Positions 1,247-32,301 of a DNA stretch of 48,573 nucleotides are shown here, piece after piece. The stretch covers positions 1 through 48,573 of the forward strand of contig JANOHV010000007.1 in NCBI GenBank assembly GCA_031406795.1, read 5' to 3'. The first letter of the stretch is position 1. Each line of letters opens with the position of its first letter. The notes under the pieces are model-generated. The model was not told the origin of the DNA. It was given only the letters and a program-made list of their open reading frames with translations, and did not search any database. The DNA comes from Candidatus Rokuibacteriota bacterium. Its GTDB lineage: Bacteria > JAUVQV01 > DATDCY01. A program made the position numbers and the translations under genes.

Positions 1247-3457
1247 GTGAGTGAGAGCCTGCGCCACTACCTGCACATGGCCCGCACGCTGCCGCCGCGC
1301 ACGGCAGTGCGTCGCGCGGGACAGATCGTCCACCGGGAGGTCGCTGCGCACGCGCGCTACCTGAAGGACCGCGTGCTGCCCACGCTCGCTGCACCTCGCG
1401 CCCCCGGAACGCCCTTGCTGCGCCACTTCCCCGCTCCTCCGCCGGAGCTTCTGAAGTCCCGGGCGGACGAAATCTGCGCCCGCAGCGCGCTCTGCATTGC
1501 CCACCGTTTCGACCTGCTCGGCTCCGGCTGGGTCGAAGTGCGCCACGGCATGAGCTGCCGCGGGCTGGACGGGCATCGCCGCGAGACCCCCGCCGTCGAC
1601 CCCGTGCGCGGCATCAATCGCGCGAATCGCGGCGCGGCGCGGCGCATCCGTCGGCTGATCCCCCGCGAATACCGGCCGATCGACTGGCACCTCGACTTCA
1701 AGTCCGGCTTCCGCTGGCCGGAGAGCCTCTGGTATCGCGACATCTCCTACGGTCACCTCGCCGGGGTTGACGTGAAGGTCCCCTGGGAACTCTCCCGCAT
1801 GCAACACCTTCCCGTTCTGGCCTGGGCTTTCGCGCTGGCGCGAGACAGGTCTCCCGGCTTTATGCCACCGCACTCCTACGCGCTGGAGTTTCGCTCGCAG
1901 GTGCTCGATTTCATCGCCGCCAATCCGCCGCGCTTCGGCGTCGCCTGGGCCTGCACGATGGACACGGCGATTCGCGCCGCCAACCTGCTCGTGGCGCGGG
2001 ATCTGCTGCTGGCCGCCGGGGTCGTTTTCGATCCACTCTTCGAGGGGTTGTTTGCCGAGTGCGTCGCCGAGCACGCGCGGCACATCGTCGCCAACCTGGA
2101 GTGGAGCGTCGAGTTGCGCGGGAACCATTACCTCGCGGACGTCTGCGGCCTGTTCTTCATCGCCGCCTACCTGCCGCGTTCGCCGCTCGCCGATGCCTGG
2201 CTGGCGTTCGCCGTGCGCGAACTGGTGACCGAGGTCGAACTGCAGTTCCATCCCGATGGCAGTTCTTTCGAGGCGTCCACTGGCTACCACCGCCTGGCGG
2301 GGGAGATGGTGCTCTGGACGACCGCTCTGGTGCTCGGCCTGCCCGAGCGGAAGCTGGCCGCCCTCGCCGAGTACGACCACCGGCTGCAGCCGCACCCCCC
2401 GGGACTCGCGCCCGCGCCCGTTCCGCTTCACCCGCTGGAGGGATCGGGGCGAAGCTCGCCCTTTCCGCCGTGGTACTTCGAACGGTTGGAGCGACTTGCC
2501 GATTTCACGCTCCATGTGGCCGGCCCCGATGGGCGCGTTCCCCCGGTCGGCGATTTCGACAGCGGTCGCTTCCTCAAACTCTGGCCCGCTTTCCGTCCGG
2601 AGCAGGTCGGGCAGGCCCGACGGCGTTGGTCGAATCTCGAGGGCTTCGACGATCTGCCGGAGCATGCCCGGTACTGGTGGGAAGACCACCTGGACCACCG
2701 GCACCTTCCGGCTGCGGCTGCCGGCCTCTTTGGACGGAGCGATTTCCTGGGCGCGGGCGACGAGGGGAACCTGGAGAATTTTCTGATCAGGCATCTGGCG
2801 AACGTGACGTTGCCCGCCGTGGCGGCCGGTGCCGGGGCGAATCCCGCGGTTCCCTCCGCGTGGGGGTGCGCCTCTCCCGCCGACGCCGTTTCCCTGGAGA
2901 TCCCTCTCCCCGGCGGCGATCTGCGCAGCGGGCTCGTCCTGCGCGCCTGGCCGGGTTTCGGGTTGTACCTTTTTCGCTCGAAGCGTCTGTACCTGCTGGT
3001 GCGCTGCGGTCCCGTCGGTCAACGCGGGAACGGGGGGCACGCTCACCACGACCAACTCGGGTTGGTGGTCGCGGCCGACGGGCAGATGATCGTTGCCGAC
3101 CCCGGCAGCTATCTGTACACGCCGCTGCCGGAGCGGCGCAACGAGTATCGTTCGGTGCATGCGCACTTCGCGCCGCACACAGTTGACGGCCGCGAGCCCG
3201 GGCGCTACGGACCGGGACTCTTCTGCCTGCCTGACGAGACGCGCGCCGAATGCCTCTCTTTCTGCCCGGAAGGCTTTCTCGGGGAGCACCACGGTTACGG
3301 GTCTCCCGTCCGGCGGCGGGTGGAGATCCTGGCCGACCGGCTGCGCGTGACCGACTGGGGGAGGGGACTGGCGTTGCTCGCTCCGGCACTGCCCCCCCAC
3401 GGCTTCAGCAGCGCGGTTCCCTTCTCCTCGGGCTACGGCTGGAGGGAGCGGCGATGA
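1247..3457 (+). CDS. Heparinase II/III family protein
   Basis: DVKVPWELSRMQHL, NHYLAD, FEASTGYHRL, GHAHHDQL, DPGSYLYT motifs; 736 aa. Confidence 0.9.
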   Translation: MSESLRHYLHMARTLPPRTAVRRAGQIVHREVAAHARYLKDRVLPTLAAPRAPGTPLLRHFPAPPPELLKSRADEICARSALCIAHRFDLLGSGWVEVRHGMSCRGLDGHRRETPAVDPVRGINRANRGAARRIRRLIPREYRPIDWHLDFKSGFRWPESLWYRDISYGHLAGVDVKVPWELSRMQHLPVLAWAFALARDRSPGFMPPHSYALEFRSQVLDFIAANPPRFGVAWACTMDTAIRAANLLVARDLLLAAGVVFDPLFEGLFAECVAEHARHIVANLEWSVELRGNHYLADVCGLFFIAAYLPRSPLADAWLAFAVRELVTEVELQFHPDGSSFEASTGYHRLAGEMVLWTTALVLGLPERKLAALAEYDHRLQPHPPGLAPAPVPLHPLEGSGRSSPFPPWYFERLERLADFTLHVAGPDGRVPPVGDFDSGRFLKLWPAFRPEQVGQARRRWSNLEGFDDLPEHARYWWEDHLDHRHLPAAAAGLFGRSDFLGAGDEGNLENFLIRHLANVTLPAVAAGAGANPAVPSAWGCASPADAVSLEIPLPGGDLRSGLVLRAWPGFGLYLFRSKRLYLLVRCGPVGQRGNGGHAHHDQLGLVVAADGQMIVADPGSYLYTPLPERRNEYRSVHAHFAPHTVDGREPGRYGPGLFCLPDETRAECLSFCPEGFLGEHHGYGSPVRRRVEILADRLRVTDWGRGLALLAPALPPHGFSSAVPFSSGYGWRERR

Positions 3458-4692
3458 GGATCCTGGTGGTCAGCTGCTGGTACGCTCCCCGGGAGCACCC
3501 CCGGGCGCTGCGCTGGTCGGCAATCACCAGGGAGTGGGCGGCCGGCGGCGCGGAGGTGACGGTGCTCTGTGCCGCGGGCGCCGGACTCGCGTCACAGGAG
3601 AGCAGCGACGGGGTGCGGGTGGTGCGCATCGGGCGCGGCCCGGCCGCCGCCGCGCCGCGGTGCTGCGGAAAACCCGGCCCGGGCGCGGATCTGGCGCGCC
3701 GGATCTGGCGGGCCGTGCGCTGGCCCGACTGGGCGTGTCTCTGGTATGCCCCGGCCAGGCAAAAAGCCCTCGAATTGTCCGCCGCCGGGCAGTACGATCG
3801 TCTGGTGAGCGTTTCGGACCCCTTCACGTCCCACCTCGTGGCGCTGGCCGCGCACCGGGCTTGGCCGCGGGTGCCGTGGCTCGTGGACATCGGCGACCCG
3901 TTCTCGCTGCAGGAGCGCCCGCCGGTGAACAACCCTCTGCTTTACGGCCGGCTCAATCGGCGCATGGAGCGGCGGGTGTTGGCGGCGGCGCGCGTGGTGA
4001 CTGTGACCGCCCCAGCGGTGCGCGAGCGCTACCTCTCGGCCTTTCCCGAGGCGGCCGCGAAGATCGTGGTGATCCCCCCGCTCTATGCCCCGCCGCCCCG
4101 TGCCGCCGCTGTCGCGGTCTTCCCCGTCGACGGGAGGCTGCGTTTGCTCTGGGTGGGCACGCTCTACCGCGCGGTCCGCGATCCCCGGCCGCTGTTCGAA
4201 CTCTTCCGGCGGCTGTGCGCCGGTTCCCTCGGGGATCGCGTCGAGCTGCACCTGATGGGCGATACGGGTGATTGCGGCGAGATCGTCGAGTCCGCCCGGC
4301 GATCGTTCGACGGACGGTTGATCGTGCACGGTATCGTGCCGCGAGCGACAGCGCTGGCCGCTGCCCGCCAGGTTGCCTGCCTGGTGAACATCGGCAACGC
4401 CACCGAGAGCCAGCTGCCGAGCAAGCTGGCCGAGTATGCCGCCTCCGGCCGGCCGATCCTCAACCTGGAGGGGAGCGACGCGGACACCTCGCGTGCGTTT
4501 CTCGCCGGGTACCCGGCTCTGCTCTCCCTGCCCCACCGCAGAGCGGCAACCGCGGAGGGGGCCGAACGGCTCGAGGTCTTCCTCAGCCAGGCGGGTACGC
4601 CCGACGCCGTGCGGCTCGCCGCCTGGCTCGAGCCCTGTACCGCCGCACGCGTGGCAGCGAGCTACGCCGCTCTTTTCGAGGGCGCGGCATGA
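3454..4692 (+). CDS. Glycosyltransferase family 4-like
   Basis: MRILVVS start overlapping the upstream stop (ATGA); PSKLAEYAASGRPIL motif. Confidence 0.85.
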   Translation: MRILVVSCWYAPREHPRALRWSAITREWAAGGAEVTVLCAAGAGLASQESSDGVRVVRIGRGPAAAAPRCCGKPGPGADLARRIWRAVRWPDWACLWYAPARQKALELSAAGQYDRLVSVSDPFTSHLVALAAHRAWPRVPWLVDIGDPFSLQERPPVNNPLLYGRLNRRMERRVLAAARVVTVTAPAVRERYLSAFPEAAAKIVVIPPLYAPPPRAAAVAVFPVDGRLRLLWVGTLYRAVRDPRPLFELFRRLCAGSLGDRVELHLMGDTGDCGEIVESARRSFDGRLIVHGIVPRATALAAARQVACLVNIGNATESQLPSKLAEYAASGRPILNLEGSDADTSRAFLAGYPALLSLPHRRAATAEGAERLEVFLSQAGTPDAVRLAAWLEPCTAARVAASYAALFEGAA

Positions 4693-5795
4693 AAATCCTC
4701 TCCGTGGTCGGGGCGCGCCCGAATTTCATGAAGATCGCACCGATCGTCCGCGAGCTGCTGCGGCGCGGGGTCCCGCACCGGCTCGTGCACACCGGCCAGC
4801 ACTACGACGCGGCAATGTCCGGGGATTTCTTCCGCGACCTGGCGATCCCGCCGCCGGAGATCTCGCTCGGCGTCGGCTCCGGGACGCACGCGGAGCAGAC
4901 GGCGCACGTGATGCTCGCGCTGGAGGCGCACCTGCTGGCCGAGCGACCCGACGTCGTGCTCGTGGTCGGCGACGTCAACTCCACGGTCGCAGCCGCATTG
5001 ACGGCGGCCAAACTCGGTATCGCGATTGCGCATGTCGAGGCCGGGCTGCGCTCGTTCGACCGCTCCATGCCCGAGGAGATCAACCGCCTGGTGACCGACG
5101 CTCTGGCCGACCTGCTCTTCGTCACCGAACCCTCGGGGGTCGAAAACCTGTGCCGCGAGGGCGTGGCCCAGGAGCGCATCCATCTGGTTGGCAACGTGAT
5201 GATCGACACGCTGCTGGCGCACCTGCCAAGAGCCCGCGCCCTGGACACCCCCGGGCGCCTCGGGCTCGTGCCCGGCGGCTACGCGCTGGTGACGCTGCAC
5301 CGTCCGTCGAACGTGGACGACGCGGAAGTCTTCGCGGGGATCCTCGGCGCCCTGGGGCAGCTCGCGCGCCGGGTGCCGGTGATCTTCCCGGTGCACCCGC
5401 GCACGCGAAAGCGGGTTGAGGCGATCGGCGCGGCGGGGATCTTCCGGGAGCCGGCCGGGCCGCTGCCGCCGGGCGCGACCGGGCTCTGGTGGCTCCCCCC
5501 CTCCGGCTATCTGGAGTTCCTTGCGCTGCAGGCGGCTGCGGCTCTGGTGCTCACCGACAGCGGCGGGGTCCAGGAGGAGACGACCGCGCTCGGCGTGCCC
5601 TGCCTGACGCTGCGCGCCAACACCGAGCGCCCGGTGACGGTGGGCGAGGGCACGAACATCATCGTCGGCGTCGACCCCTCGCGCATCGTCGAGGCGGCGA
5701 CAACGATCCTCGAGGGGCGGCGCAGGCCCGGCCGGGTGCCCGCGCTCTGGGACGGCCACGCCGCCGAGCGCATCGTCGCCATCCTGCTCAGGTAG
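4689..5795 (+). CDS. wecB: UDP-N-acetylglucosamine 2-epimerase (non-hydrolysing)
   Basis: VVGARPNFMKIAP, HTGQHYD, HVEAGLRS, PEEINR, TDSGGVQEE, TERP; ATGA coupling. Confidence 0.95.
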   Translation: MKILSVVGARPNFMKIAPIVRELLRRGVPHRLVHTGQHYDAAMSGDFFRDLAIPPPEISLGVGSGTHAEQTAHVMLALEAHLLAERPDVVLVVGDVNSTVAAALTAAKLGIAIAHVEAGLRSFDRSMPEEINRLVTDALADLLFVTEPSGVENLCREGVAQERIHLVGNVMIDTLLAHLPRARALDTPGRLGLVPGGYALVTLHRPSNVDDAEVFAGILGALGQLARRVPVIFPVHPRTRKRVEAIGAAGIFREPAGPLPPGATGLWWLPPSGYLEFLALQAAAALVLTDSGGVQEETTALGVPCLTLRANTERPVTVGEGTNIIVGVDPSRIVEAATTILEGRRRPGRVPALWDGHAAERIVAILLR

Positions 5796-27283: not shown

Positions 27284-27751
27284 CTATTTTGCCTGGTGCA
27301 GCTGCATCCCGCACATGCAGGCGCCGGGCTTGTCCGAGAGGGTGTTGCAGCCGCAGGAACCGCCGCAGTTGCAGAAGTAAAGGCCGCTGCCCTCGAGGTT
27401 GAGCCGCTTGATCGGCTTGCCGCAGCCGCACTTGGCGTGGTCCTTCGGGTCGATCTTGCAGGTGCAGGTCGGGCCGCAGGTGCAAGCCAGCGCGGTGTTG
27501 CCCTCCGTGAAGACCACGTGGCCGCCCGCCATCTCCTTACCGCAGGTGCACTTGCCCGGCTTCAGGGATACGGTGTTGCACTTGCACTCGGGGCCGCAGG
27601 CGCACCAGTAGACAACCGACGACCCGTGCGACCCGCCCTCCATGGAACCGTGCCCCTTGTGCTTCCCCTGATGCCCCCCGCCGTGGTGGGCGCAGGCGCC
27701 GAGGACGAAGGCGGCGGCGATCAGGACGAATGCTGCTGCGAATCTCTTCAT
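27284..27751 (-). CDS. His/Cys-rich metallothionein-like lipoprotein
   Basis: Signal peptide with LGAC lipobox, His/Gly linker, nine CxC motifs in three repeats; AAGGAGG SD; stop 13 nt before the hgcA ATG. Confidence 0.85.
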   Translation of the reverse strand: MKRFAAAFVLIAAAFVLGACAHHGGGHQGKHKGHGSMEGGSHGSSVVYWCACGPECKCNTVSLKPGKCTCGKEMAGGHVVFTEGNTALACTCGPTCTCKIDPKDHAKCGCGKPIKRLNLEGSGLYFCNCGGSCGCNTLSDKPGACMCGMQLHQAK

Positions 27752-27808
27752 GGCGCTCCCTCCTTGATGGGTATCCCGGATTCGCCGGTCAGGTCGACCG
27801 ACCCCCCT

Positions 27809-27837
27809 AATGTACGGCGCGCGGCGGGGTGCGTCAA
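27809..27837 (-). promoter_or_regulatory. Sigma70 promoter of the lipoprotein-hgcA-hgcB operon
   Basis: TTGACG-17 nt-TACATT on the minus strand. Confidence 0.65.
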
Positions 27838-27853
27838 GGGCGCCGTGCAATTT

Positions 27854-27874: not shown

Positions 27875-28201
27875 CTACCCGAACGAGCAGACATACTCGG
27901 TGATGCCGCCCTCGACCTCGATGTCGAAGGCGGAGTTGGCCGCAACCGGGAACGAGGTGCCCGCGACGTACGTTTTCCATGAACTCTCGCCCTTGAGGCG
28001 CACGCGGCAGGAGCCGGCGACGATCGCCATCACCTCGGCGGCGGCGGTGGTGAAGTTGAACGAGCCCGGATAGATCAGGCCGATCGTCTTCTTCGCGCCG
28101 TCGGCGGTGAAGACGGTGTGGCTGACCACCTTGCCCTCGAAATAGATGTTGGCCTTGGTGACGACGGAGACGCCGTCGAACTTCTCGGGTGCCTTGGACA
28201 T
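27875..28201 (-). CDS. ppnP: Pyrimidine/purine nucleoside phosphorylase (DUF1255)
   Basis: KANIYFEGKVVS, KKTIG, F.T.AAEVM, EYVCSF. Confidence 0.9.
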   Translation of the reverse strand: MSKAPEKFDGVSVVTKANIYFEGKVVSHTVFTADGAKKTIGLIYPGSFNFTTAAAEVMAIVAGSCRVRLKGESSWKTYVAGTSFPVAANSAFDIEVEGGITEYVCSFG

Positions 28202-28226: not shown

Positions 28227-29633
28227 TTACTGCTTGCGGTCCAGATGCAGGAACTCCGCGATCGCCGTCGCCGACGCCGGCAGTTCCACCGGGCGGTTCT
28301 GCAGCTCCTTCTTCGGCTCGATCTCGTATTCGGCGCTCAAGCTCCCCTCGAAGTACTTCTGCTGGAAGTCGGCGAACTTGAGCTGGTGCGCGGTGGAGTC
28401 GACGACGACCCGCATCCCCGGCTCGATCACCTTCGCCCGCAGCGCCGCGGTCAGCCCGGCGACGCCCTCGCCGCCCTGCGTGCAGATCACGTGCCCGTGG
28501 CGGTTGGCGGTGAGCATCGCGTCCATGATCTGTTGTTCGGTGACCTCGACCACGGCGAAACGCTCGCGGAAGTGCTCCTCGACGAGCCGGCGTACTTTCG
28601 GAAAGGAGACCGGGTTGCCGATCATCGCCGCCTGCGCGACGCTCGCGGTCACCCGCACCGGCTCATAGGTGCCGCGCTTCTTCCAGAGGTACACGGGATT
28701 CGCGTGGCGGCTCTGCACCCCGACGAGCAGCGGCAGCCGCCCGATCATCCCGAGGCGCTGCAGGTCGAGGAAGCCTTCCATGACCGCGGTGACGTTGCCG
28801 GCGTTGCCGATCGGCACGACCACGGCCAGGTCATCGGTTCGCCAGCCGGCGTTCATCGCCACCTCGTAGGCATAGGACTTCTGCCCGTTGATGCGCACCG
28901 GGTTCTTGGAGTTGAGCAGGAAGACCTGGTAGTCGCGCGAGAGCTCCTCGACGATGCGCATGCAGTCGTCGAAGACGCCCGGAACCTGGATGACGGTGGC
29001 CCCGCTGCCGAGCGGCTGCGAGAGCTGCTGCGGGGTCACCTTGCCGGCGGGCAGCAGCACGACCGATTTGACCGTCCCCTTGGGGAGGTAGGCGAGATAG
29101 AGCGCTGCGGCGGCCGACGTGTCGCCCGTGGAGGCGCAGATGCCGAGCACGTCGCGCACTCCCCAGCGCTTGATGGCGTGATTGAGGTACGAGATCGCCG
29201 AGGCCATGCCGCGATCCTTGAAGGAAGCCGAGGGGTTGAGCCCGTCGTATTTGATGAAGAAGGGCGCGCCGACCGCCGCGGCGAGATCGGCGTTGGCGGG
29301 TATGACCGGCGTGTGCCCCTCGCCGAGCCAGATGACGTCTTCCGGCGGCACGCAGGGGAGGATCAATTCGTGGAACCGGAAGATCCCTTGCAGCGAGGCG
29401 GGTTCGGCTGCCAGCGCCCGGTAGGCGAAAAGACGCTGCCAGAACTCCCCGCTGCGGCTCTTGAGGGACTCGAAGGCGAGATCGCGCAGCGAAAGCAGGC
29501 CGCCGCAGGCCGGGCAGGTGTAGGCGAAGCGCTCGATCGGGTGGCGGGCGGCGCACGAGACGCATTCGTAAACCACCTCGCCACGGTACGTGGGGGCAAT
29601 GGCGTCGCGGATGTCATCAGGGAAGTCGATCAT
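28227..29633 (-). CDS. thrC: Threonine synthase
   Basis: LGEGHTP, NPSASFKDRGM, CASTGDTSAA, PIGNAGN; start MIDFP after an AGGAGG SD. Confidence 0.93.
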   Translation of the reverse strand: MIDFPDDIRDAIAPTYRGEVVYECVSCAARHPIERFAYTCPACGGLLSLRDLAFESLKSRSGEFWQRLFAYRALAAEPASLQGIFRFHELILPCVPPEDVIWLGEGHTPVIPANADLAAAVGAPFFIKYDGLNPSASFKDRGMASAISYLNHAIKRWGVRDVLGICASTGDTSAAAALYLAYLPKGTVKSVVLLPAGKVTPQQLSQPLGSGATVIQVPGVFDDCMRIVEELSRDYQVFLLNSKNPVRINGQKSYAYEVAMNAGWRTDDLAVVVPIGNAGNVTAVMEGFLDLQRLGMIGRLPLLVGVQSRHANPVYLWKKRGTYEPVRVTASVAQAAMIGNPVSFPKVRRLVEEHFRERFAVVEVTEQQIMDAMLTANRHGHVICTQGGEGVAGLTAALRAKVIEPGMRVVVDSTAHQLKFADFQQKYFEGSLSAEYEIEPKKELQNRPVELPASATAIAEFLHLDRKQ

Positions 29634-29661
29634 CAACGGCTCCTCCTGTCCCAAAGTCCTA

Positions 29662-29715
29662 CGGGGTCCTGTCGCTGCGCACCGCCGGGGGCCCCCGCTT
29701 CGCGCCACCCCTTCG
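29662..29715 (-). repeat. Dispersed structured repeat, copy B
   Basis: Reverse complement matches 20784-20862 without that copy's 25-nt insert. Confidence 0.75.
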
Positions 29716-29791
29716 TCCCGCTCGAGTCGAAAAAGCCGGTCCGATGTGCGCCTTTAAAGAATACCACGAACTTTACCGGGCCGAGTGGCGC

Positions 29792-30334
29792 TCAGGGCTG
29801 CGTCGGAGCCGTCCCCTCCTCGGGGAGCGCGCCGAGGTAGGGGAGATTGCGGTACTGCTCGCGGTTGTCGAGGCCGTAGCCCACCAGGAAGCGGTCGGGA
29901 ACCTCGAAACCGACATATTGGATCGGTAGCTTCGTTAGCCGCCGGACGCGCCGGTCGAGCAGGGTGCAGATGGCGAGGCTGGCCGGCTCGCGCGACTGAA
30001 GATTGCGCACGAGGTAGCCGAGGGTCAGGCCGGTGTCGACGATGTCCTCGATGAACAGGACGTCGCGGCCGGTGATCGGGAGGTCGAGATCCTTCTCGAT
30101 GCGCACTACGCCGCCGCGCTTGCCGGCGCCATAGCGGGTGATCGCCATGAAGTCGAGGTTGATCGGGAGAGTGATAGCGCGCGAGAGATCGGCGAGGAAG
30201 ACGAACGACCCCTTGAGCACGGAGACGAGGACGGGGATGCGGCCGGCGTAATCGCGGGAGATTTCCGCACCCAACTCCCCAACGCGCCGCCTCAGCTCGT
30301 CCTCGCCGATCACCACGGGAATATTTTCGCGCAT
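29792..30334 (-). CDS. hpt: Hypoxanthine phosphoribosyltransferase-like protein (deviant paralog)
   Basis: VLKGSFVFLADL, IEDIVDTGLTL, VGYGLD, YRNLP; but ITRY and LLDR in place of the usual SSY and LLDK. Confidence 0.85.
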   Translation of the reverse strand: MRENIPVVIGEDELRRRVGELGAEISRDYAGRIPVLVSVLKGSFVFLADLSRAITLPINLDFMAITRYGAGKRGGVVRIEKDLDLPITGRDVLFIEDIVDTGLTLGYLVRNLQSREPASLAICTLLDRRVRRLTKLPIQYVGFEVPDRFLVGYGLDNREQYRNLPYLGALPEEGTAPTQP

Positions 30335-30369
30335 GGCGCCTCCGGGGTGGTGCATTTTCCCCGGAAGGC

Positions 30370-30377
30370 ATTATATT
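30370..30377. promoter_or_regulatory. Overlapping divergent -10 elements (hpt / ncRNA copy 1)
   Basis: TATAAT on the minus strand (30375-30370) overlaps TATATT on the plus strand (30372-30377). Confidence 0.55.
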
Positions 30378-30384
30378 GGAAGTG

Positions 30385-30531
30385 GGCCCCGAGAGGTTGG
30401 AACGGCGTGCCCTAGAGGGAACGGGAAGAAGGCTGGCTCCAGAGCTTGAAACAGAGCCTGTGCCAGGAACCAAGCGACCGTTAGGAGATTCCCTCTAGAG
30501 CGGAAGATGCCAAGTACGGTCACTCGGGGCC
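30385..30531 (+). ncRNA. Structured ncRNA, copy 1 (unassigned family, rod-like)
   Basis: Closing stem GGCCCCGAG/CTCGGGGCC, inner stem CTAGAGGGAA/TTCCCTCTAG, conserved apical domain, T-rich 3' flank. Confidence 0.8.
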
Positions 30532-30551
30532 GTACTTTATTTCCTTCTGTC

Positions 30552-30570
30552 GACGCCTCCGGGAGGTGTC
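30552..30570. terminator. GC-rich hairpin between the two ncRNA copies
   Basis: GACGCCTC-CGG-GAGGTGTC. Confidence 0.3.
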
Positions 30571-30638
30571 ACCCCCCTAAGTCGCTTCTGCATGAACCGC
30601 ATGGGCCGAGCGAGTGCTCTCGTCCGACGGTTTTCCTG

Positions 30639-30666
30639 TTGCAAATCCCGTGGAGGATATTAGATT
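30639..30666 (+). promoter_or_regulatory. Sigma70 promoter of ncRNA copy 2
   Basis: TTGCAA-16 nt-TAGATT, ending 7 nt before the RNA stem. Confidence 0.6.
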
Positions 30667-30673
30667 GATATCA

Positions 30674-30819
30674 GGCCCCGAGAGGTTGGAAAGGCGGCAC
30701 TAAAGAGGGGATAAGGGACGGTTGGCTTCAGGGCTTGAAACAGAGCCTGTGCCAGAAGCAACAAAAGCCGTTGGGATGTCCCTCAGGTGCCAGAAAGCCC
30801 GGTACGATCACTCGGGGCC
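30674..30819 (+). ncRNA. Structured ncRNA, copy 2 (paralog of copy 1)
   Basis: Same ends and identical 23-nt core; stems GGCACT/GGTGCC and GAGGG/CCCTC covary with copy 1; followed by TCTTTTCTT. Confidence 0.8.
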
Positions 30820-30848
30820 TCTTTTCTTGTGAGAGCCCTGCGCCCGCG

Positions 30849-31808
30849 CTACTCGAAGCCGAACTTCTGAGCGAGCTTTTTGAAGTCCCGGCCGTAGAAG
30901 ATCAGCAGTTTCTTGTCCGGGTAGCGCTCCCTGAAGAGCCGGACCTTGCGGTTCTTCTTCGTCACGAGGGATTGCTTCATCGTGGTCAGCTCGAGATACG
31001 TGTCCATCTCGGTGAGATAGAAGTCGGGAGAGAAGCTCGACTTGACGCGGCCGTCGGGCCACCACTCGACGGGGAACGTCTCGGGTTCGTACTTCCAGGG
31101 GATGCGATAGAAATCGAGGACTCTCGCGAACTCCGCCTCGCTTTCATTGGCGAAGCGCGTCGGCGTGGGCGACGCCGGGAGGGGGTCGAGGTCGATTTCC
31201 CGAGCCCCCCGTGTCTGGGCGCACGCCCGGATCTCCTCGAAGCCGCCGGAACCGGTCAGGCCGCAGGCCGCGACCGCCTGTTCGATGAGAGCCGCCGCCG
31301 TTTCAACGCCGAGCGTGTCGACGCGCAGCACCAGGTCGTAATGCTCGGCCCGCGTCAGATCCTCGCCGAAGTGCTGCCGCACCAGCCGCCGCCGCGCCTG
31401 TTCCCGGCGCTGGAGTGCCGCGCCGCTGCGCCGGGTCCCCTGCGCCTCGGCTGTCGCGAGGCGGAATTCGAGTGCGGCGCCCAGTCGGACGTGCAGCGCG
31501 CCGGGGCAGCCGCTGAACAGGAACTGTCCGCCGAAGCCCAGCAGTACGATATTCTCCCGAAATGCCAGGTGCCAGATGATGCCTTCGGTGGCAGCGCGAA
31601 CAGCGCGCGCCTCCGCGTCCGGTTGCCCCGGCGAATCGGCGGCTGGAGGTTCGTCGAGGCGGCCGATGGCGGCGAGCAGATCGTAACTGTAGAGCAGTTC
31701 GCGCATCAGCGCGCGGTCGAGCAGGCGGAAGCCCAGGCGGCGAGCGACCTCGGCGGCGACGTCCTCGCCGCGGCAGGCCTCGAGGCGCGAGACGGTTACG
31801 ATCGCCAT
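30849..31808 (-). CDS. Cytidylate-kinase-like domain fused to a PD-(D/E)XK-fold domain
   Basis: N-terminal MAIVTVSR...LHVRL...HYDLVL; C-terminal SEAEFARVLDFYRIPWKYEPETF...FSPDFYL...YLELTT. Confidence 0.8.
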   Translation of the reverse strand: MAIVTVSRLEACRGEDVAAEVARRLGFRLLDRALMRELLYSYDLLAAIGRLDEPPAADSPGQPDAEARAVRAATEGIIWHLAFRENIVLLGFGGQFLFSGCPGALHVRLGAALEFRLATAEAQGTRRSGAALQRREQARRRLVRQHFGEDLTRAEHYDLVLRVDTLGVETAAALIEQAVAACGLTGSGGFEEIRACAQTRGAREIDLDPLPASPTPTRFANESEAEFARVLDFYRIPWKYEPETFPVEWWPDGRVKSSFSPDFYLTEMDTYLELTTMKQSLVTKKNRKVRLFRERYPDKKLLIFYGRDFKKLAQKFGFE

Positions 31809-31968
31809 GGAGAGTCGCGCGGCGGGAAAATGCCCATGGGCGGACTATAGCGGTGAAATCGCCGGCCGCCAAGCCTTCCGCCTCCCAAGTTTCGTCGCCC
31901 GAGCAGATCCGCCGCGTATCATCCGCGGGGAGTTGCGGACGTTGCGCCCAGCGGGTAAAGTAGCGCTC

Positions 31969-32301
31969 ATGGCAGCGCGTCAGCGACTCCGCGACATGAA
32001 GCCGAAGGCTCCCGACAGCCGGCCGGTCTCCGAGATCGTCGGAGAACTCCGGAAGAATCTGCCGGCCTCGGACTATCGCGAGCAGAGCCTGAAGATTCAC
32101 GGGCTGATCTGCGCCAAGTGTGCGCGGGAGTTCGAGCCCAAGGACCGGCATCTGCTGACGGTGCACCACAAGGACGGCAACCACGGGAACAACCCCCAGA
32201 ACGGCTCGAACTGGGAGAATCTCTGCGTCTACTGCCACGACGACGAGCACAGCCGCGGCGGACTCGGCGAGTACTACCGCAAATCCCGGGCAGGCCGCTG
32301 A
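31969..32301 (+). CDS. yajD: YajD-family HNH nuclease
   Basis: YREQSLK...CAKCAREF...LTVHHKDGNH.NNP..GSNWENLCVYCHDDEH; start may be 31996. Confidence 0.85.
   Translation: MAARQRLRDMKPKAPDSRPVSEIVGELRKNLPASDYREQSLKIHGLICAKCAREFEPKDRHLLTVHHKDGNHGNNPQNGSNWENLCVYCHDDEHSRGGLGEYYRKSRAGR

What the first reader, a model, noticed from the sequence alone, without database searches (positions are those of the whole stretch)
29792..31808. Candidate undescribed RNP system: HPRT-like protein, tandem ncRNAs and CMK-like/PD-(D/E)XK fusion
Seen: two paralogous structured RNAs, each with promoter signals, lie antisense between two co-oriented genes. All three protein domains deviate at catalytic motifs, and hpt and RNA 1 share overlapping -10 elements. 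From recollection (unverified), this PD-(D/E)XK-like domain occurs fused to or beside HPRT in other phyla, which would imply a functional link. Known precedent: PyrR is a PRTase fold repurposed for RNA binding. Inference: a nucleotide/PRPP-sensing ribonucleoprotein regulator, or an RNA-associated nuclease module (antitoxin-like or guide-like).
Basis: partly seen in the sequence, partly recalled or inferred. Interest (0 to 1): 0.9.

Follow-up and report, generated by a model that had tools for sequence, protein, structure and literature searches.

The report
Small RNAs inside an hpt–nuclease-like cassette
Two copies of an uncatalogued, structured small RNA sit between a purine-salvage gene (hpt) and a gene for a resolvase-like protein that accompanies or is fused to hpt in many bacterial phyla. 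This points to an undescribed partnership whose function is still unknown.

Summary
Window 30385-30531 and 30674-30819 (+ strand) are two 75%-identical copies of a rod-shaped ~147-nt RNA. They lie antisense between hpt and a gene fusing a cytidylate-kinase-like domain to a C-terminal domain (Cdom).

- **RNA family.** No Rfam family matches, and the genome's canonical 6S and SRP RNAs lie elsewhere. All copies share one terminal helix: 98.9% paired in 77 sequences, 6 of 13 pairs compensatory, invariant G-U wobble. Most have a TTGACA/TAnnnT promoter and a U-tract. Genomes hold 1-6 copies. Metatranscriptome contigs cover RNA1.
- **Cdom.** It is a remote relative of T7 endonuclease I and phage Holliday-junction resolvases, with Thr at the catalytic-Lys position.
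- **Cdom-hpt link.** hpt follows the Cdom gene in 77 of 80 genomes across many phyla, and the two are fused in Dehalococcoidia (at least 120 protein clusters).
- **RNA-cassette link.** It is non-random but not obligatory. Of 81 metagenomic copies, 27 are in the cassette, 13 clearly are not and 41 are undecidable. In one class, 23 of 28 genomes keep a copy beside it. Yet only 9 of 80 Cdom loci have the RNA, and four genomes have it without detectable Cdom.

An RNP is plausible but unshown. hpt itself looks like a normal, sole-copy enzyme.

The parts
29792..30334 (-). hpt (hypoxanthine-guanine phosphoribosyltransferase). Likely start is the ATG at 30334, preceded by GGAGG at 30339-30343. A longer ORF starts at 30355.
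   Evidence: TIGR01203 equivalog 181.1 bits against a cut-off of 150. PF00156. E 1.9e-54 to PDB 1r3u. Only hpt match in G000. Relatives start near MAENI/MDGDL.
30370..30377 (.). ATTATATT: a -10-like hexamer on both strands. TATATT on + serves RNA1; TATAAT on - faces hpt.
   Evidence: Read from the sequence. Present upstream of all 13 hpt-adjacent window-type copies and 0 of 4 non-adjacent ones. Function inferred, not measured.
30385..30531 (+). sRNA copy 1: terminal helix 30385-30399 with 30517-30531, then a U-rich tail to about 30545.
   Evidence: Fold. Model R2 124.3 bits. Terminator-like site 30512-30537. Metatranscriptome contig over 30407-30529 at depth 31.3, bounded by adapters.
30639..30666 (+). 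Promoter-like signals of copy 2: TTGCAA, 16 nt, TAGATT.
   Evidence: Read from the sequence. Same layout in relatives. Not flagged by the consensus scan.
30674..30819 (+). sRNA copy 2, with a U-rich tail to about 30830.
   Evidence: Fold z -4.30. 75% identical to copy 1. Model R2 102.3 bits. RNA contigs cover 30736-30875 and 30407-31000.
30852..31196 (-). Cdom: endonuclease-I/Holliday-junction-resolvase-like PD-(D/E)XK domain (aa 205-319 of the fusion protein).
   Evidence: Profile hit to PDB 3cae Endonuclease I, E 0.0015. phrog_9019 Holliday junction resolvase, E 1.2e-7. Pfam Phage_endo_I below cut-off in 21 of 61 members. Invariant E20, E37, D58, E69, T71, Q75, K81, K84 in 61 sequences.
31317..31802 (-). 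Cytidylate-kinase-like domain (PF13189, aa 3-164) of the same protein (gene 30849-31808).
   Evidence: PF13189 78.6 bits against a cut-off of 28. No Walker A motif in 0 of 27 relatives.
31844..31872 (-). Promoter-like site upstream of the fusion gene: TTGGCG, 17 nt, TATAGT.
   Evidence: The only sigma-70-like match in 29600-32100; 0.3 expected from shuffles.

Best explanation
WHAT IT IS. The interval holds a lineage-specific tandem duplication of one gene of a new multi-copy family of structured small RNAs. Members are about 140-215 nt long. Each has its own sigma-70-type promoter and a U-tract. All share one terminal module: a 9-bp helix NNCCCCRAG/CUYGGGGNN, a 1x1 A-A mismatch, then 4 bp GGYY/GRUC with an invariant G-U.

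THE CASSETTE. One family member is kept inside or beside a conserved two-gene cassette. The first gene encodes a protein ending in an endonuclease-I/Holliday-junction-resolvase-like domain (Cdom). Here Cdom is fused to a kinase-dead cytidylate-kinase-like domain. The second gene is the cell's ordinary hpt.

SHOWN.
- The RNA family, its helix and its strand.
- Presence of the RNAs in RNA libraries.
- The Cdom-hpt coupling and fusion.
- The non-random RNA-cassette linkage.

INFERRED (my preferred mechanism).
- Cdom and Hpt act as one complex, as their fusion implies.
- In lineages that carry the RNA, the Cdom protein recognises the invariant terminal module of these RNAs, as ligand or as processing substrate. 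This would tie an RNA regulator to purine salvage.
- In the window's arrangement, hpt and RNA1 also share back-to-back overlapping -10 elements, so their transcription is probably coupled or mutually exclusive.
For: THE RNA IS REAL.
- Terminal helix 99.5% paired in 16 sequences with 5 of 13 pairs compensatory. In 77 sequences it is 98.9% paired, with 6 of 13 compensatory and the G-U wobble in 77 of 77 (that alignment was fitted to the model).
- Rod fold of the window type: 87.1% of cells paired and 11 of 48 pairs compensatory, 0 of 500 shuffles as high; slid controls 34-47%.
- The commonest type has 14 of 25 predicted pairs compensatory.
- A metatranscriptome contig matches RNA1 with 1 difference at depth 31.3, against at most 3.2 for the hpt-side pieces of the same run. 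Three further RNA runs from two other studies cover the region.

CDOM-HPT.
- hpt lies directly downstream on the same strand in 77 of 80 genomes. The 3 exceptions run off their contigs within about 460 nt.
- Other neighbours were not conserved in the 12 loci examined.
- Fused Cdom-Hpt proteins: at least 120 clusters, 74-92% identical, covering 89-97% of the query.
- Family size: 3077 representatives at E<=1e-3 and 405 at E<=1e-30.

RNA-CASSETTE LINK.
- Same genus: the RNA lies between the two genes in both loci read, L004 and L005.
- Acidobacteriota: 4 of 401 genomes match the pattern. One match is coding sequence. The other 3 all lie between Cdom and hpt.
- Metagenome scan starting from the RNA: of 81 copies, 27 have hpt or Cdom beside them, 13 clearly do not, and 41 have a flank under 1.5 kb.
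- Three recurrent arrangements: between the genes on the opposite strand, after hpt on the same strand, and before the Cdom gene.
- Class of G062, 121 genomes: 28 of 29 genomes with the long Cdom protein have the RNA, 0 of 19 with the short form, and 4 of 73 without Cdom. In 23 of the 28 a copy lies within 1.7 kb downstream on the same contig and strand.

OTHER.
- No Hfq and no CsrA were found in the 99.9%-complete genome.
- Precedent: the B. subtilis TilS-HprT complex binds nucleic acid (passages of PMC8152036).
Against: - The RNA occurs without detectable Cdom in G004 (92% complete, 2 copies, unrelated neighbours).
- It also occurs in G552, G566 and G567, whose hpt is only 39-40% identical and sits on other contigs.
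- Only 9 of 80 Cdom-hpt loci have the RNA within 4 kb.
- Four whole genomes with Cdom gave no match, and a fifth gave only a weak unlinked one. Only 150 of 581-1931 candidates were scored in each.
- So the core job of Cdom-Hpt does not need this RNA.
- Genomes hold up to 6 copies, most of them unlinked.
- The class-level co-occurrence is confounded by relatedness: the long-form genomes are probably one clade.
- No binding, structure or complex prediction could be run.
- Contigs cannot show the RNA's strand, ends or level. Some contigs span the spacer between the copies, which could equally reflect read-through from the genes.
- The canonical catalytic Lys of the nuclease fold is missing.
Confidence: 0.4

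Rival explanations
1. Autonomous trans-acting sRNA family. The RNAs work through some other partner or by base pairing. One copy merely sits next to hpt because of co-regulation (a shared bidirectional promoter, or purine-responsive control) or inherited synteny. There is no physical link to the Cdom protein.
For: - 1-6 copies per genome, many unlinked.
- RNA present in four genomes with no detectable Cdom.
- Most Cdom loci lack the RNA.
- ATTATATT, a -10 on both strands, is shared with hpt in 13 of 13 adjacent window-type copies.
- Interiors differ completely between types, while only the terminal module is kept.
Against: - A shared promoter cannot explain the commonest arrangement, where the RNA follows hpt on the same strand with its own TTGACA promoter, nor the copy upstream of the Cdom gene in L023.
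- Linkage survives in three arrangements and at least three phylum-level groups.
- No Hfq or CsrA was found in G000, so the usual partners are missing.
Confidence: 0.3
2. Cis-antisense or transcriptional-interference device. Transcription of the RNAs against the Cdom-hpt operon, or their duplex with read-through mRNA, uncouples or tunes expression of the two genes.
For: - In the window type, the RNAs are antisense between the genes. The RNA 3' end is about 20 nt from the Cdom stop codon, and the -10 elements overlap.
- RNA contigs span gene, RNA2, spacer and RNA1.
Against: - It applies to only one of the three arrangements: 8 'between, opposite strand' copies against 10 'after hpt, same strand'.
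- Unlinked copies keep the same conserved module.
- The conserved fold and G-U pairs argue for a function of the RNA itself.
Confidence: 0.1
3. A second, divergent 6S-like RNA that binds RNA polymerase.
For: Rod-shaped RNA of about 150 nt with internal loops, a strong promoter, and presence in RNA libraries.
Against: - No match to Rfam 6S even at E<=10.
- A canonical 6S at 71.4 bits lies on another contig.
- Up to 6 copies per genome.
- The predicted folds show only small internal loops, no large central bubble.
- Conservation is sequence-specific at the ends rather than at a bubble.
Confidence: 0.05
4. A DNA-level element. The long imperfect palindromes are cruciform-forming or mobile repeats (MITE-like) recognised as DNA by the resolvase-like protein, and are not functional RNAs.
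For: - Cdom is related to four-way-junction resolvases.
- The elements are multi-copy with inverted ends.
Against: - Invariant G-U wobble positions pair only in RNA of one strand.
- Copies within one genome differ by about 25%, with compensatory changes, rather than being near-identical.
- The promoter and U-tract lie outside the repeat at fixed distances.
- The elements are covered in metatranscriptomes.
Confidence: 0.04

Closest known systems
Bacteriophage T7 endonuclease I and phage Holliday-junction resolvases (Pfam PF05367, phrog_9019)
   Same: Cdom aligns over the core PD...E motif (tYTPDF / sFtPDF; vE / iE). Scores: E 0.0015 to PDB 3cae, E 1e-7 to 5e-9 to phrog_9019, sub-threshold PF05367 in 21 of 61 members. 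A 2012 survey table already lists Dehalococcoides and Thermomicrobium sequences under the T7 endonuclease I group (passage of PMC3424549).
   Different: - Never reaches the Pfam cut-off.
- Invariant Thr at the position of the catalytic Lys. That is the position where the junction-complex chain 2pfj carries Ala and 3cae carries Lys.
- A chromosomal gene always beside or fused to hpt, not a phage gene.
- The genome has its own RuvC.
TilS-HprT complex of Bacillus subtilis
   Same: The product of the gene just upstream of, and overlapping, hprT forms a complex with HprT that binds nucleic acid and regulates transcription (passages of review PMC8152036; the primary paper, Lin et al. 2014, was not read). 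Here too the upstream gene is tightly coupled to hpt, with overlapping or adjacent stop and start in several loci.
   Different: The partner is a resolvase-like domain, not TilS. The pair is fused in one class. An sRNA gene is attached in some lineages. No biochemical evidence exists here.
6S RNA (Rfam RF00013)
   Same: Abundant-looking, rod-shaped RNA of about 150 nt with its own promoter.
   Different: No model match. A true 6S lies elsewhere in the genome. The family is multi-copy with a sequence-specific terminal module.
   Same: A phosphoribosyltransferase-fold protein encoded next to a structured RNA.
   Different: The window's protein scores 23.5 bits against PyrR's cut-off of 218 and 181.1 against HGPRTase's 150. 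The RNA is a separate gene, not a leader of the pyr operon.
Multi-copy regulatory sRNA families such as Qrr or RsmX/Y/Z (named from memory, not tested)
   Same: Several diverged paralogues per genome, each with its own promoter and terminator, sharing one conserved element.
   Different: No Hfq or CsrA in this genome. The conserved element is a terminal helix with an A-A mismatch, not a single-stranded seed or GGA loops. One copy is anchored to a gene cassette.

Membership tests
Rfam 6S RNA (RF00013) | Match to the covariance model at or above the gathering score | tested here: not met
   No match at gathering over the window, nor at E<=10 over 30250-30950. The genome's 6S is at G000:C148:6429-6617, 71.4 bits.
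Any Rfam 15 family | Match of any of the 4227 models to the RNA | tested here: not met
   Window type. 18 related loci. Commonest type and Blastocatellia type at E<=10: only chance-level hits of 12.9-14.9 bits.
Independent sRNA gene | Own promoter, own terminator, conserved secondary structure with compensatory changes, evidence of transcription | tested here: met
   Promoter and U-tract counts. Helix covariation. RNA-library contigs, though these cannot show strand or ends. The consensus scan did not flag the window's own promoters.
HGPRTase (NCBIfam TIGR01203 equivalog) | Score above the curated cut-off, with the PRPP-binding and loop motifs | tested here: met
   181.1 bits against 150. EDIVDTG, LKGS, KDLD and GYGLD kept. 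Departures: TRY for SSY, DR for DK, DN for DY. The roles of these residues are recalled, not tested.
Cytidylate kinase-like family (Pfam PF13189) | Score above the gathering cut-off | tested here: met
   78.6 bits against 28.
Active P-loop nucleotide kinase | Walker A motif GxxxxGK[ST] | tested here: not met
   0 of 27 long relatives have it in the first 60 residues. The site reads SRLEACRGED.
Phage endonuclease I (Pfam PF05367) | Score above the gathering cut-off (29.1 bits) | tested here: not met
   Best single-sequence scores are 15-18 bits. 21 of 61 members match below the cut-off, best E 1.8e-4.
PD-(D/E)XK nucleases | Acidic residues of the PD...(D/E)xK site plus the Lys | tested here: inconclusive
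   D58 and E69 (and E20, E37) are invariant in 61 sequences, but the Lys position is an invariant Thr. K81 and K84 are invariant nearby. No structure could be predicted.
Known anti-phage defence or toxin-antitoxin systems (PADLOC 2.0) | Match of the proteins to a defence model | tested here: not met
   No family for hpt, the fusion protein, the Cdom-Hpt fusion or a stand-alone Cdom protein. Only the neighbouring YajD-type HNH gives generic HNH hits.
Ribonucleoprotein of these proteins with these RNAs | Physical binding of the RNA by the Cdom protein or Hpt | not testable with these tools
Only genomic linkage is available.

The most novel reading that the evidence does not exclude
A new ribonucleoprotein. 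A Holliday-junction-resolvase-like domain has been retooled, with Lys replaced by Thr, to recognise or cut the invariant terminal helix (A-A mismatch plus G-U pairs) of a family of structured small RNAs. It works in complex with, or fused to, the housekeeping enzyme Hpt. Purine, PRPP or (p)ppGpp status would then be read out through an RNA regulator in soil and sediment phyla that lack Hfq and CsrA.
Probability: 0.3. Interest if true: 0.85.

Novelty: new variant of a known kind. Interest (0 to 1): 0.62.

Why it matters
Three things here appear to be undescribed.

1. **A new small-RNA family.** It is widespread, multi-copy and structured, and occurs in poorly studied soil, peat and sediment bacteria. 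It is not in Rfam 15. Its signature 12-mers appear in no relevant paper: the 8 hits were all eukaryote or virus-host papers by title. At least one host genome has neither Hfq nor CsrA.

2. **A conserved partner for Hpt.** The small resolvase-like domain family has 3077 representative proteins at E<=1e-3. Sources name its members 'hypothetical protein', 'cytidylate kinase' or, when fused, simply 'hypoxanthine phosphoribosyltransferase'. It is nevertheless a near-obligate partner of hpt across many phyla.

3. **A genomic link between the two.** If the proteins and RNA work together, this would be a new way of tying nucleotide salvage to RNA-based regulation.

If they do not work together, the Cdom-Hpt pairing alone is still a clear, testable lead on a moonlighting or regulated form of a textbook enzyme.

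Tried and rejected
REJECTED IDENTITIES FOR THE RNA.
- 6S RNA and SRP RNA: both lie elsewhere in the genome.
- CsrA sponge or Hfq-dependent sRNA: neither protein was found in G000.

REJECTED ROLES FOR CDOM OR THE LOCUS.
- Cdom as the cell's only Holliday-junction resolvase: RuvC is present.
- Defence system: no PADLOC match for hpt or the fusion protein.

SEARCHES THAT FOUND NOTHING USEFUL.
- Tandem Repeats Finder found no array at 30200-31000. The copies are only about 75% alike and about 289 nt apart.
It gave weak or spurious hits such as L056:2129-2190, so I replaced it with R2.
- RNAalifold on mixed types lost the inner helices. I therefore counted pairs on the minimum-free-energy structure of copy 1 instead. 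That structure comes from one of the aligned sequences, which favours it.
- Long Cdom-hpt gaps in Chloroflexia looked like room for an RNA. They are GC-rich and belong to C-terminal extensions of the Cdom ORF, 84-137 residues long.
- Unlinked RNA copies have no dominant neighbour. The largest cluster, 7 loci, is a nucleoside 2-deoxyribosyltransferase-like gene about 1 kb away.
- Literature searches for an hpt-nuclease link, for PF13189 function and for the RNA's sequence found nothing relevant.
- Parts of the window without contig cover in the RNA runs (30237-30381) are not evidence of silence.

TOOLS THAT WERE CLOSED.
- The Atlas could not read the window's own sequence, so I used a stored homologue instead.


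Full report
**What is in the window.**
Between 29792 and 31808 the minus strand carries two genes.
- hpt runs from 29792 to 30334. A longer ORF starts at 30355.
- A 319-aa gene runs from 30849 to 31808. Its N-half is a cytidylate-kinase-like domain (PF13189, 78.6 bits). Its last 115 residues match no Pfam family above the cut-off. I call this part Cdom.

Between the genes, on the plus strand, lie two elements at 30385-30531 and 30674-30819.
- They are 75% identical (E 5.3e-17; alignment).
- Each folds into a long, imperfect hairpin: z -2.98 and -4.30 against shuffles.
- The opposite strand of copy 1 folds almost as well (z -2.90), so energy alone does not decide the strand.
- Proteins more than 90% identical carry names such as 'Candidatus Methylomirabilia bacterium'. 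The genome's own GTDB phylum holds only six genomes.

**The RNAs are genes of a new family.**
- No Rfam 15 model matches the window at gathering level, or at E<=10 over the region. None matches 18 related loci or the two other RNA types.
- The genome has a canonical 6S RNA (71.4 bits) and an SRP RNA on other contigs.
- Homologues from other genomes differ greatly inside, from 131 to about 215 nt. All share one terminal module: a 9-bp helix, a 1x1 A-A mismatch, then four pairs that include an invariant G-U.
- In 16 sequences the 13 pairs are 99.5% paired and 5 show compensatory changes.
- In 77 sequences aligned to the model, the pairs are 98.9% paired and 6 are compensatory. The G-U is present in 77 of 77, and slid controls give 22-60%. 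That alignment is fitted to the model, which favours the structure.
- The G-U pairs fix the RNA on the window's plus strand.
- The rod fold of the window type is supported by 17 sequences: 87% of cells paired, 11 of 48 pairs compensatory, 0 of 500 shuffles as high. The structure was taken from copy 1 itself, which favours it.
- In the commonest type, 14 of 25 predicted pairs are compensatory.

**Promoters, terminators, expression.**
- The simple consensus scan did not flag a promoter for either RNA in the window. It did flag a terminator-like site at the end of copy 1.
- Read by eye, copy 2 has TTGCAA-16 nt-TAGATT. Copy 1 has TATATT with a weak -35. Close relatives have TTGCAA-17-TATATT.
- Of 79 metagenomic copies with enough upstream sequence, 65 have TTGACA with at most one mismatch. 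43 also have TAnnnT at 16-18 nt (0 of 79 after shuffling). 69 are followed by a U-rich tract.
- Nineteen of the 24 listed runs that hold part of the stretch are on record as RNA. I laid four of them.
  - Run X2 has a 179-nt contig bounded by sequencing adapters on both sides. It matches 30407-30529 with one difference at depth 31.3. Its hpt-side piece has depth 3.2, and its other pieces over the spacer, RNA2 and the gene end have 2.1-2.7.
  - Runs from two other studies, from a relative about 95% alike, cover RNA1, the spacer and RNA2 at depths of 3.5-23.
- Contigs cannot show strand, ends or level, and DNA can contaminate RNA libraries. This is support, not proof.
- From my memory of Illumina adapters, the adapter order fits a plus-strand RNA only if the library was dUTP-stranded. 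I could not check that.

**The protein pair.**
hpt is an ordinary enzyme by sequence.
- It scores 181.1 bits against the HGPRTase equivalog cut-off of 150 and E 1.9e-54 to a solved HGPRT.
- It is the only hpt match in the 99.9%-complete genome.
- Its three departures (TRY for SSY, DR for DK, DN for DY) are partly shared by relatives. K and R both occur at the DK position among 75 aligned sequences.

The kinase-like domain lacks a Walker A motif in 0 of 27 relatives.

Cdom is a remote relative of T7 endonuclease I and phage Holliday-junction resolvases.
- A profile hits PDB 3cae at E 0.0015.
- phrog_9019 'Holliday junction resolvase' scores E 1.2e-7 to 4.8e-9.
- Pfam Phage_endo_I matches below its cut-off in 21 of 61 members.
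- A protein-language-model search of a homologue gave the same lead.
- Across 61 sequences, E20, E37, D58, E69, T71, Q75, K81 and K84 are invariant. T71 aligns with the Lys of the E-x-K motif. That is the position where chain 2pfj carries Ala and 3cae carries Lys.
- The acidic cluster is kept and the canonical Lys is not. Whether Cdom still cuts is open.
- No structure could be predicted.

**Cdom always travels with hpt.**
- In the best 80, hpt follows Cdom on the same strand in 77. The other three contigs end within about 460 nt.
- Other neighbours were not conserved in the 12 loci examined.
- The 80 Cdom proteins carry a PF13189 N-domain in 23 cases, are fused to the phosphoribosyltransferase domain in 1, and have no other recognisable domain in 56.
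- The fusion is not an artefact. At least 120 protein clusters of 301-321 aa cover 89-97% of the fused query at 74-92% identity. Most are named 'hypoxanthine phosphoribosyltransferase' from Dehalococcoidia or Chloroflexota.
- An exhaustive profile search found 3077 representatives at E<=1e-3 and 405 at E<=1e-30.
- Gene fusion plus near-universal adjacency is strong evidence that the two proteins act together.
- The nearest precedent is the B. subtilis TilS-HprT complex, which binds DNA (passages of the review PMC8152036).
- A 2012 survey of PD-(D/E)XK enzymes lists Dehalococcoides and Thermomicrobium sequences in the T7 endonuclease I group. Its main text never mentions phosphoribosyl or hypoxanthine. 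Supplements were not available.

**How tightly is the RNA tied to the pair?**

*For a link.*
- In the same genus all three genomes have one copy. In the two loci I read (L004, L005), it lies between the two genes. The flanks of the third were not read. So the window's second copy is a recent tandem duplication.
- Model R2 finds the RNA in 9 of 80 Cdom loci, in three arrangements: between the genes on the opposite strand, after hpt on the same strand (L069), and before the Cdom gene (L023).
- Starting from the RNA pattern, 4 of 401 Acidobacteriota genomes match. One match is plainly coding sequence. The other three all lie between Cdom and hpt.
- A metagenome scan returned 81 copies in 80 loci. 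27 have hpt or Cdom beside them, 13 clearly do not (at least 1.5 kb clear on both sides), and 41 cannot be decided.
- In 121 genomes of the class of G062, 32 have the RNA (1-6 copies) and 48 have Cdom. 28 have both.
- In that sample, 28 of the 29 genomes with the long Cdom ORF (315-411 aa) have the RNA, and none of the 19 with the short form does.
- In 23 of the 28, one copy lies within 1.7 kb downstream of Cdom on the same contig and strand. I infer that this is after hpt, by analogy with L069. hpt was not located in these genomes.

*Against an obligatory link.*
- G004 (same order, 92% complete) has two copies in unrelated contexts and no detectable Cdom.
- G552, G566 and G567 have the RNA, no Cdom by profile, and a more distant hpt on other contigs. 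The fourth RNA-only genome, G475, was not examined.
- Four Cdom genomes gave no RNA match anywhere. A fifth gave only a weak, unlinked and divergent one. Only 150 of 581-1931 candidates were scored per genome.
- The genomes in these samples are related, so the counts overstate independence.

**Reading.**
- The Cdom-Hpt partnership is the broad, old feature.
- The sRNA family is a lineage-restricted addition that keeps one member anchored to the cassette and spreads further copies elsewhere.
- The module shared by all copies looks like a protein-recognition site. The host has no Hfq or CsrA, and the adjacent protein has a fold that recognises nucleic-acid structure.
- I therefore favour, at about 0.4, that the Cdom protein binds or processes these RNAs and works with Hpt.
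- The main rival, at about 0.3, is an autonomous sRNA that is only co-regulated with hpt.
- The window type adds a local twist. ATTATATT at 30370-30377 is a -10 hexamer on both strands. It is placed to drive RNA1 one way and hpt the other, and it is present in 13 of 13 hpt-adjacent copies of this type and 0 of 4 others. This suggests coupled or mutually exclusive transcription.
- Nothing supports a defence, toxin-antitoxin or guide-RNA role.

**Verdict.**
The ribonucleoprotein is unproven. hpt is not degenerate. The RNA is not exclusive to this locus.

Noticed in passing
window 27284-27850 (-): ORF for a 188-aa protein with a signal-peptide-like start and at least four repeats of a Cys-rich motif (C-x-C-G-x-x-C-x-C, e.g. 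CACGPECKC, CTCGPTCTC, CNCGGSCGC). It looks like a secreted metal-binding protein.
   Followed up: no
window 28227-29708 (-): The PLP-dependent (PALP, threonine-synthase-like) gene downstream of hpt carries an N-terminal DUF7129 zinc-ribbon-like stretch (24.9 bits, below the cut-off of 30). With ppnP at 27875-28201 it is syntenic in relative L009.
   Followed up: partly
window 31807-32301 (+): YajD-family HNH gene (100.4 bits against a cut-off of 87), divergent from the fusion gene. The relative's protein starts at MAARQRL, so the true start is probably the ATG at 31969, not 31807. It accompanies the cassette in only 1 of 80 loci.
   Followed up: partly
L152:102-268 and 374-541; L156:888-1040 and 3065-3230; L143:1641-1796 and 3047-3206: Other organisms also carry two copies of the sRNA close together or in tandem, so local duplication of this gene recurs.
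   Followed up: partly
L017 gap 4301-4733 (reverse strand); L110:1501-1739: Divergent relatives of the RNA. L017 has a TTGACA promoter and ends GGGUCCCGAUUGGACC...GGGUCGUUCGGGACC, and is missed by the pattern and by model R2. L110 (22.3 bits) has a G-A instead of an A-A mismatch and a separate terminator hairpin, and sits on a different contig from Cdom-hpt. The family is probably wider than the strict pattern shows.
   Followed up: partly
L011, L015, L039, L056, L066, L107 (Blastocatellia-type loci): Here the RNA is about 215 nt. An extra 5' hairpin precedes the module. In the predicted fold, a branched core carries hairpins capped by GCAA and UUCG tetraloops, which looks like a compactly folded RNA rather than a simple rod. 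L056 is labelled Clostridia but its RNA and locus look Blastocatellia-like.
   Followed up: partly
L025, L029, L044, L045, L047, L054, L072, L076, L082, L084, L085, L087: In Chloroflexia the Cdom ORF continues for 84-137 residues beyond the domain, filling most of the 320-550-nt gap to hpt. These may be linker-like extensions on the way to the Dehalococcoidia fusion.
   Followed up: partly
L146:536-1045 and six other unlinked RNA loci: The commonest neighbour of unlinked RNA copies (7 loci) is a nucleoside 2-deoxyribosyltransferase-like gene (PF05014, 70.2 bits) about 1 kb away. It is another nucleoside-salvage gene, but the loci may be close relatives.
   Followed up: partly
Stand-alone Cdom proteins P0100, P0103, P0113, P0116; L011:3623-4378: The roughly 90-residue N-domain of the 200-250-aa forms matches no Pfam family even at E<=10. 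By eye and from memory it resembles PC4-like single-strand-binding domains. This was not tested.
   Followed up: no
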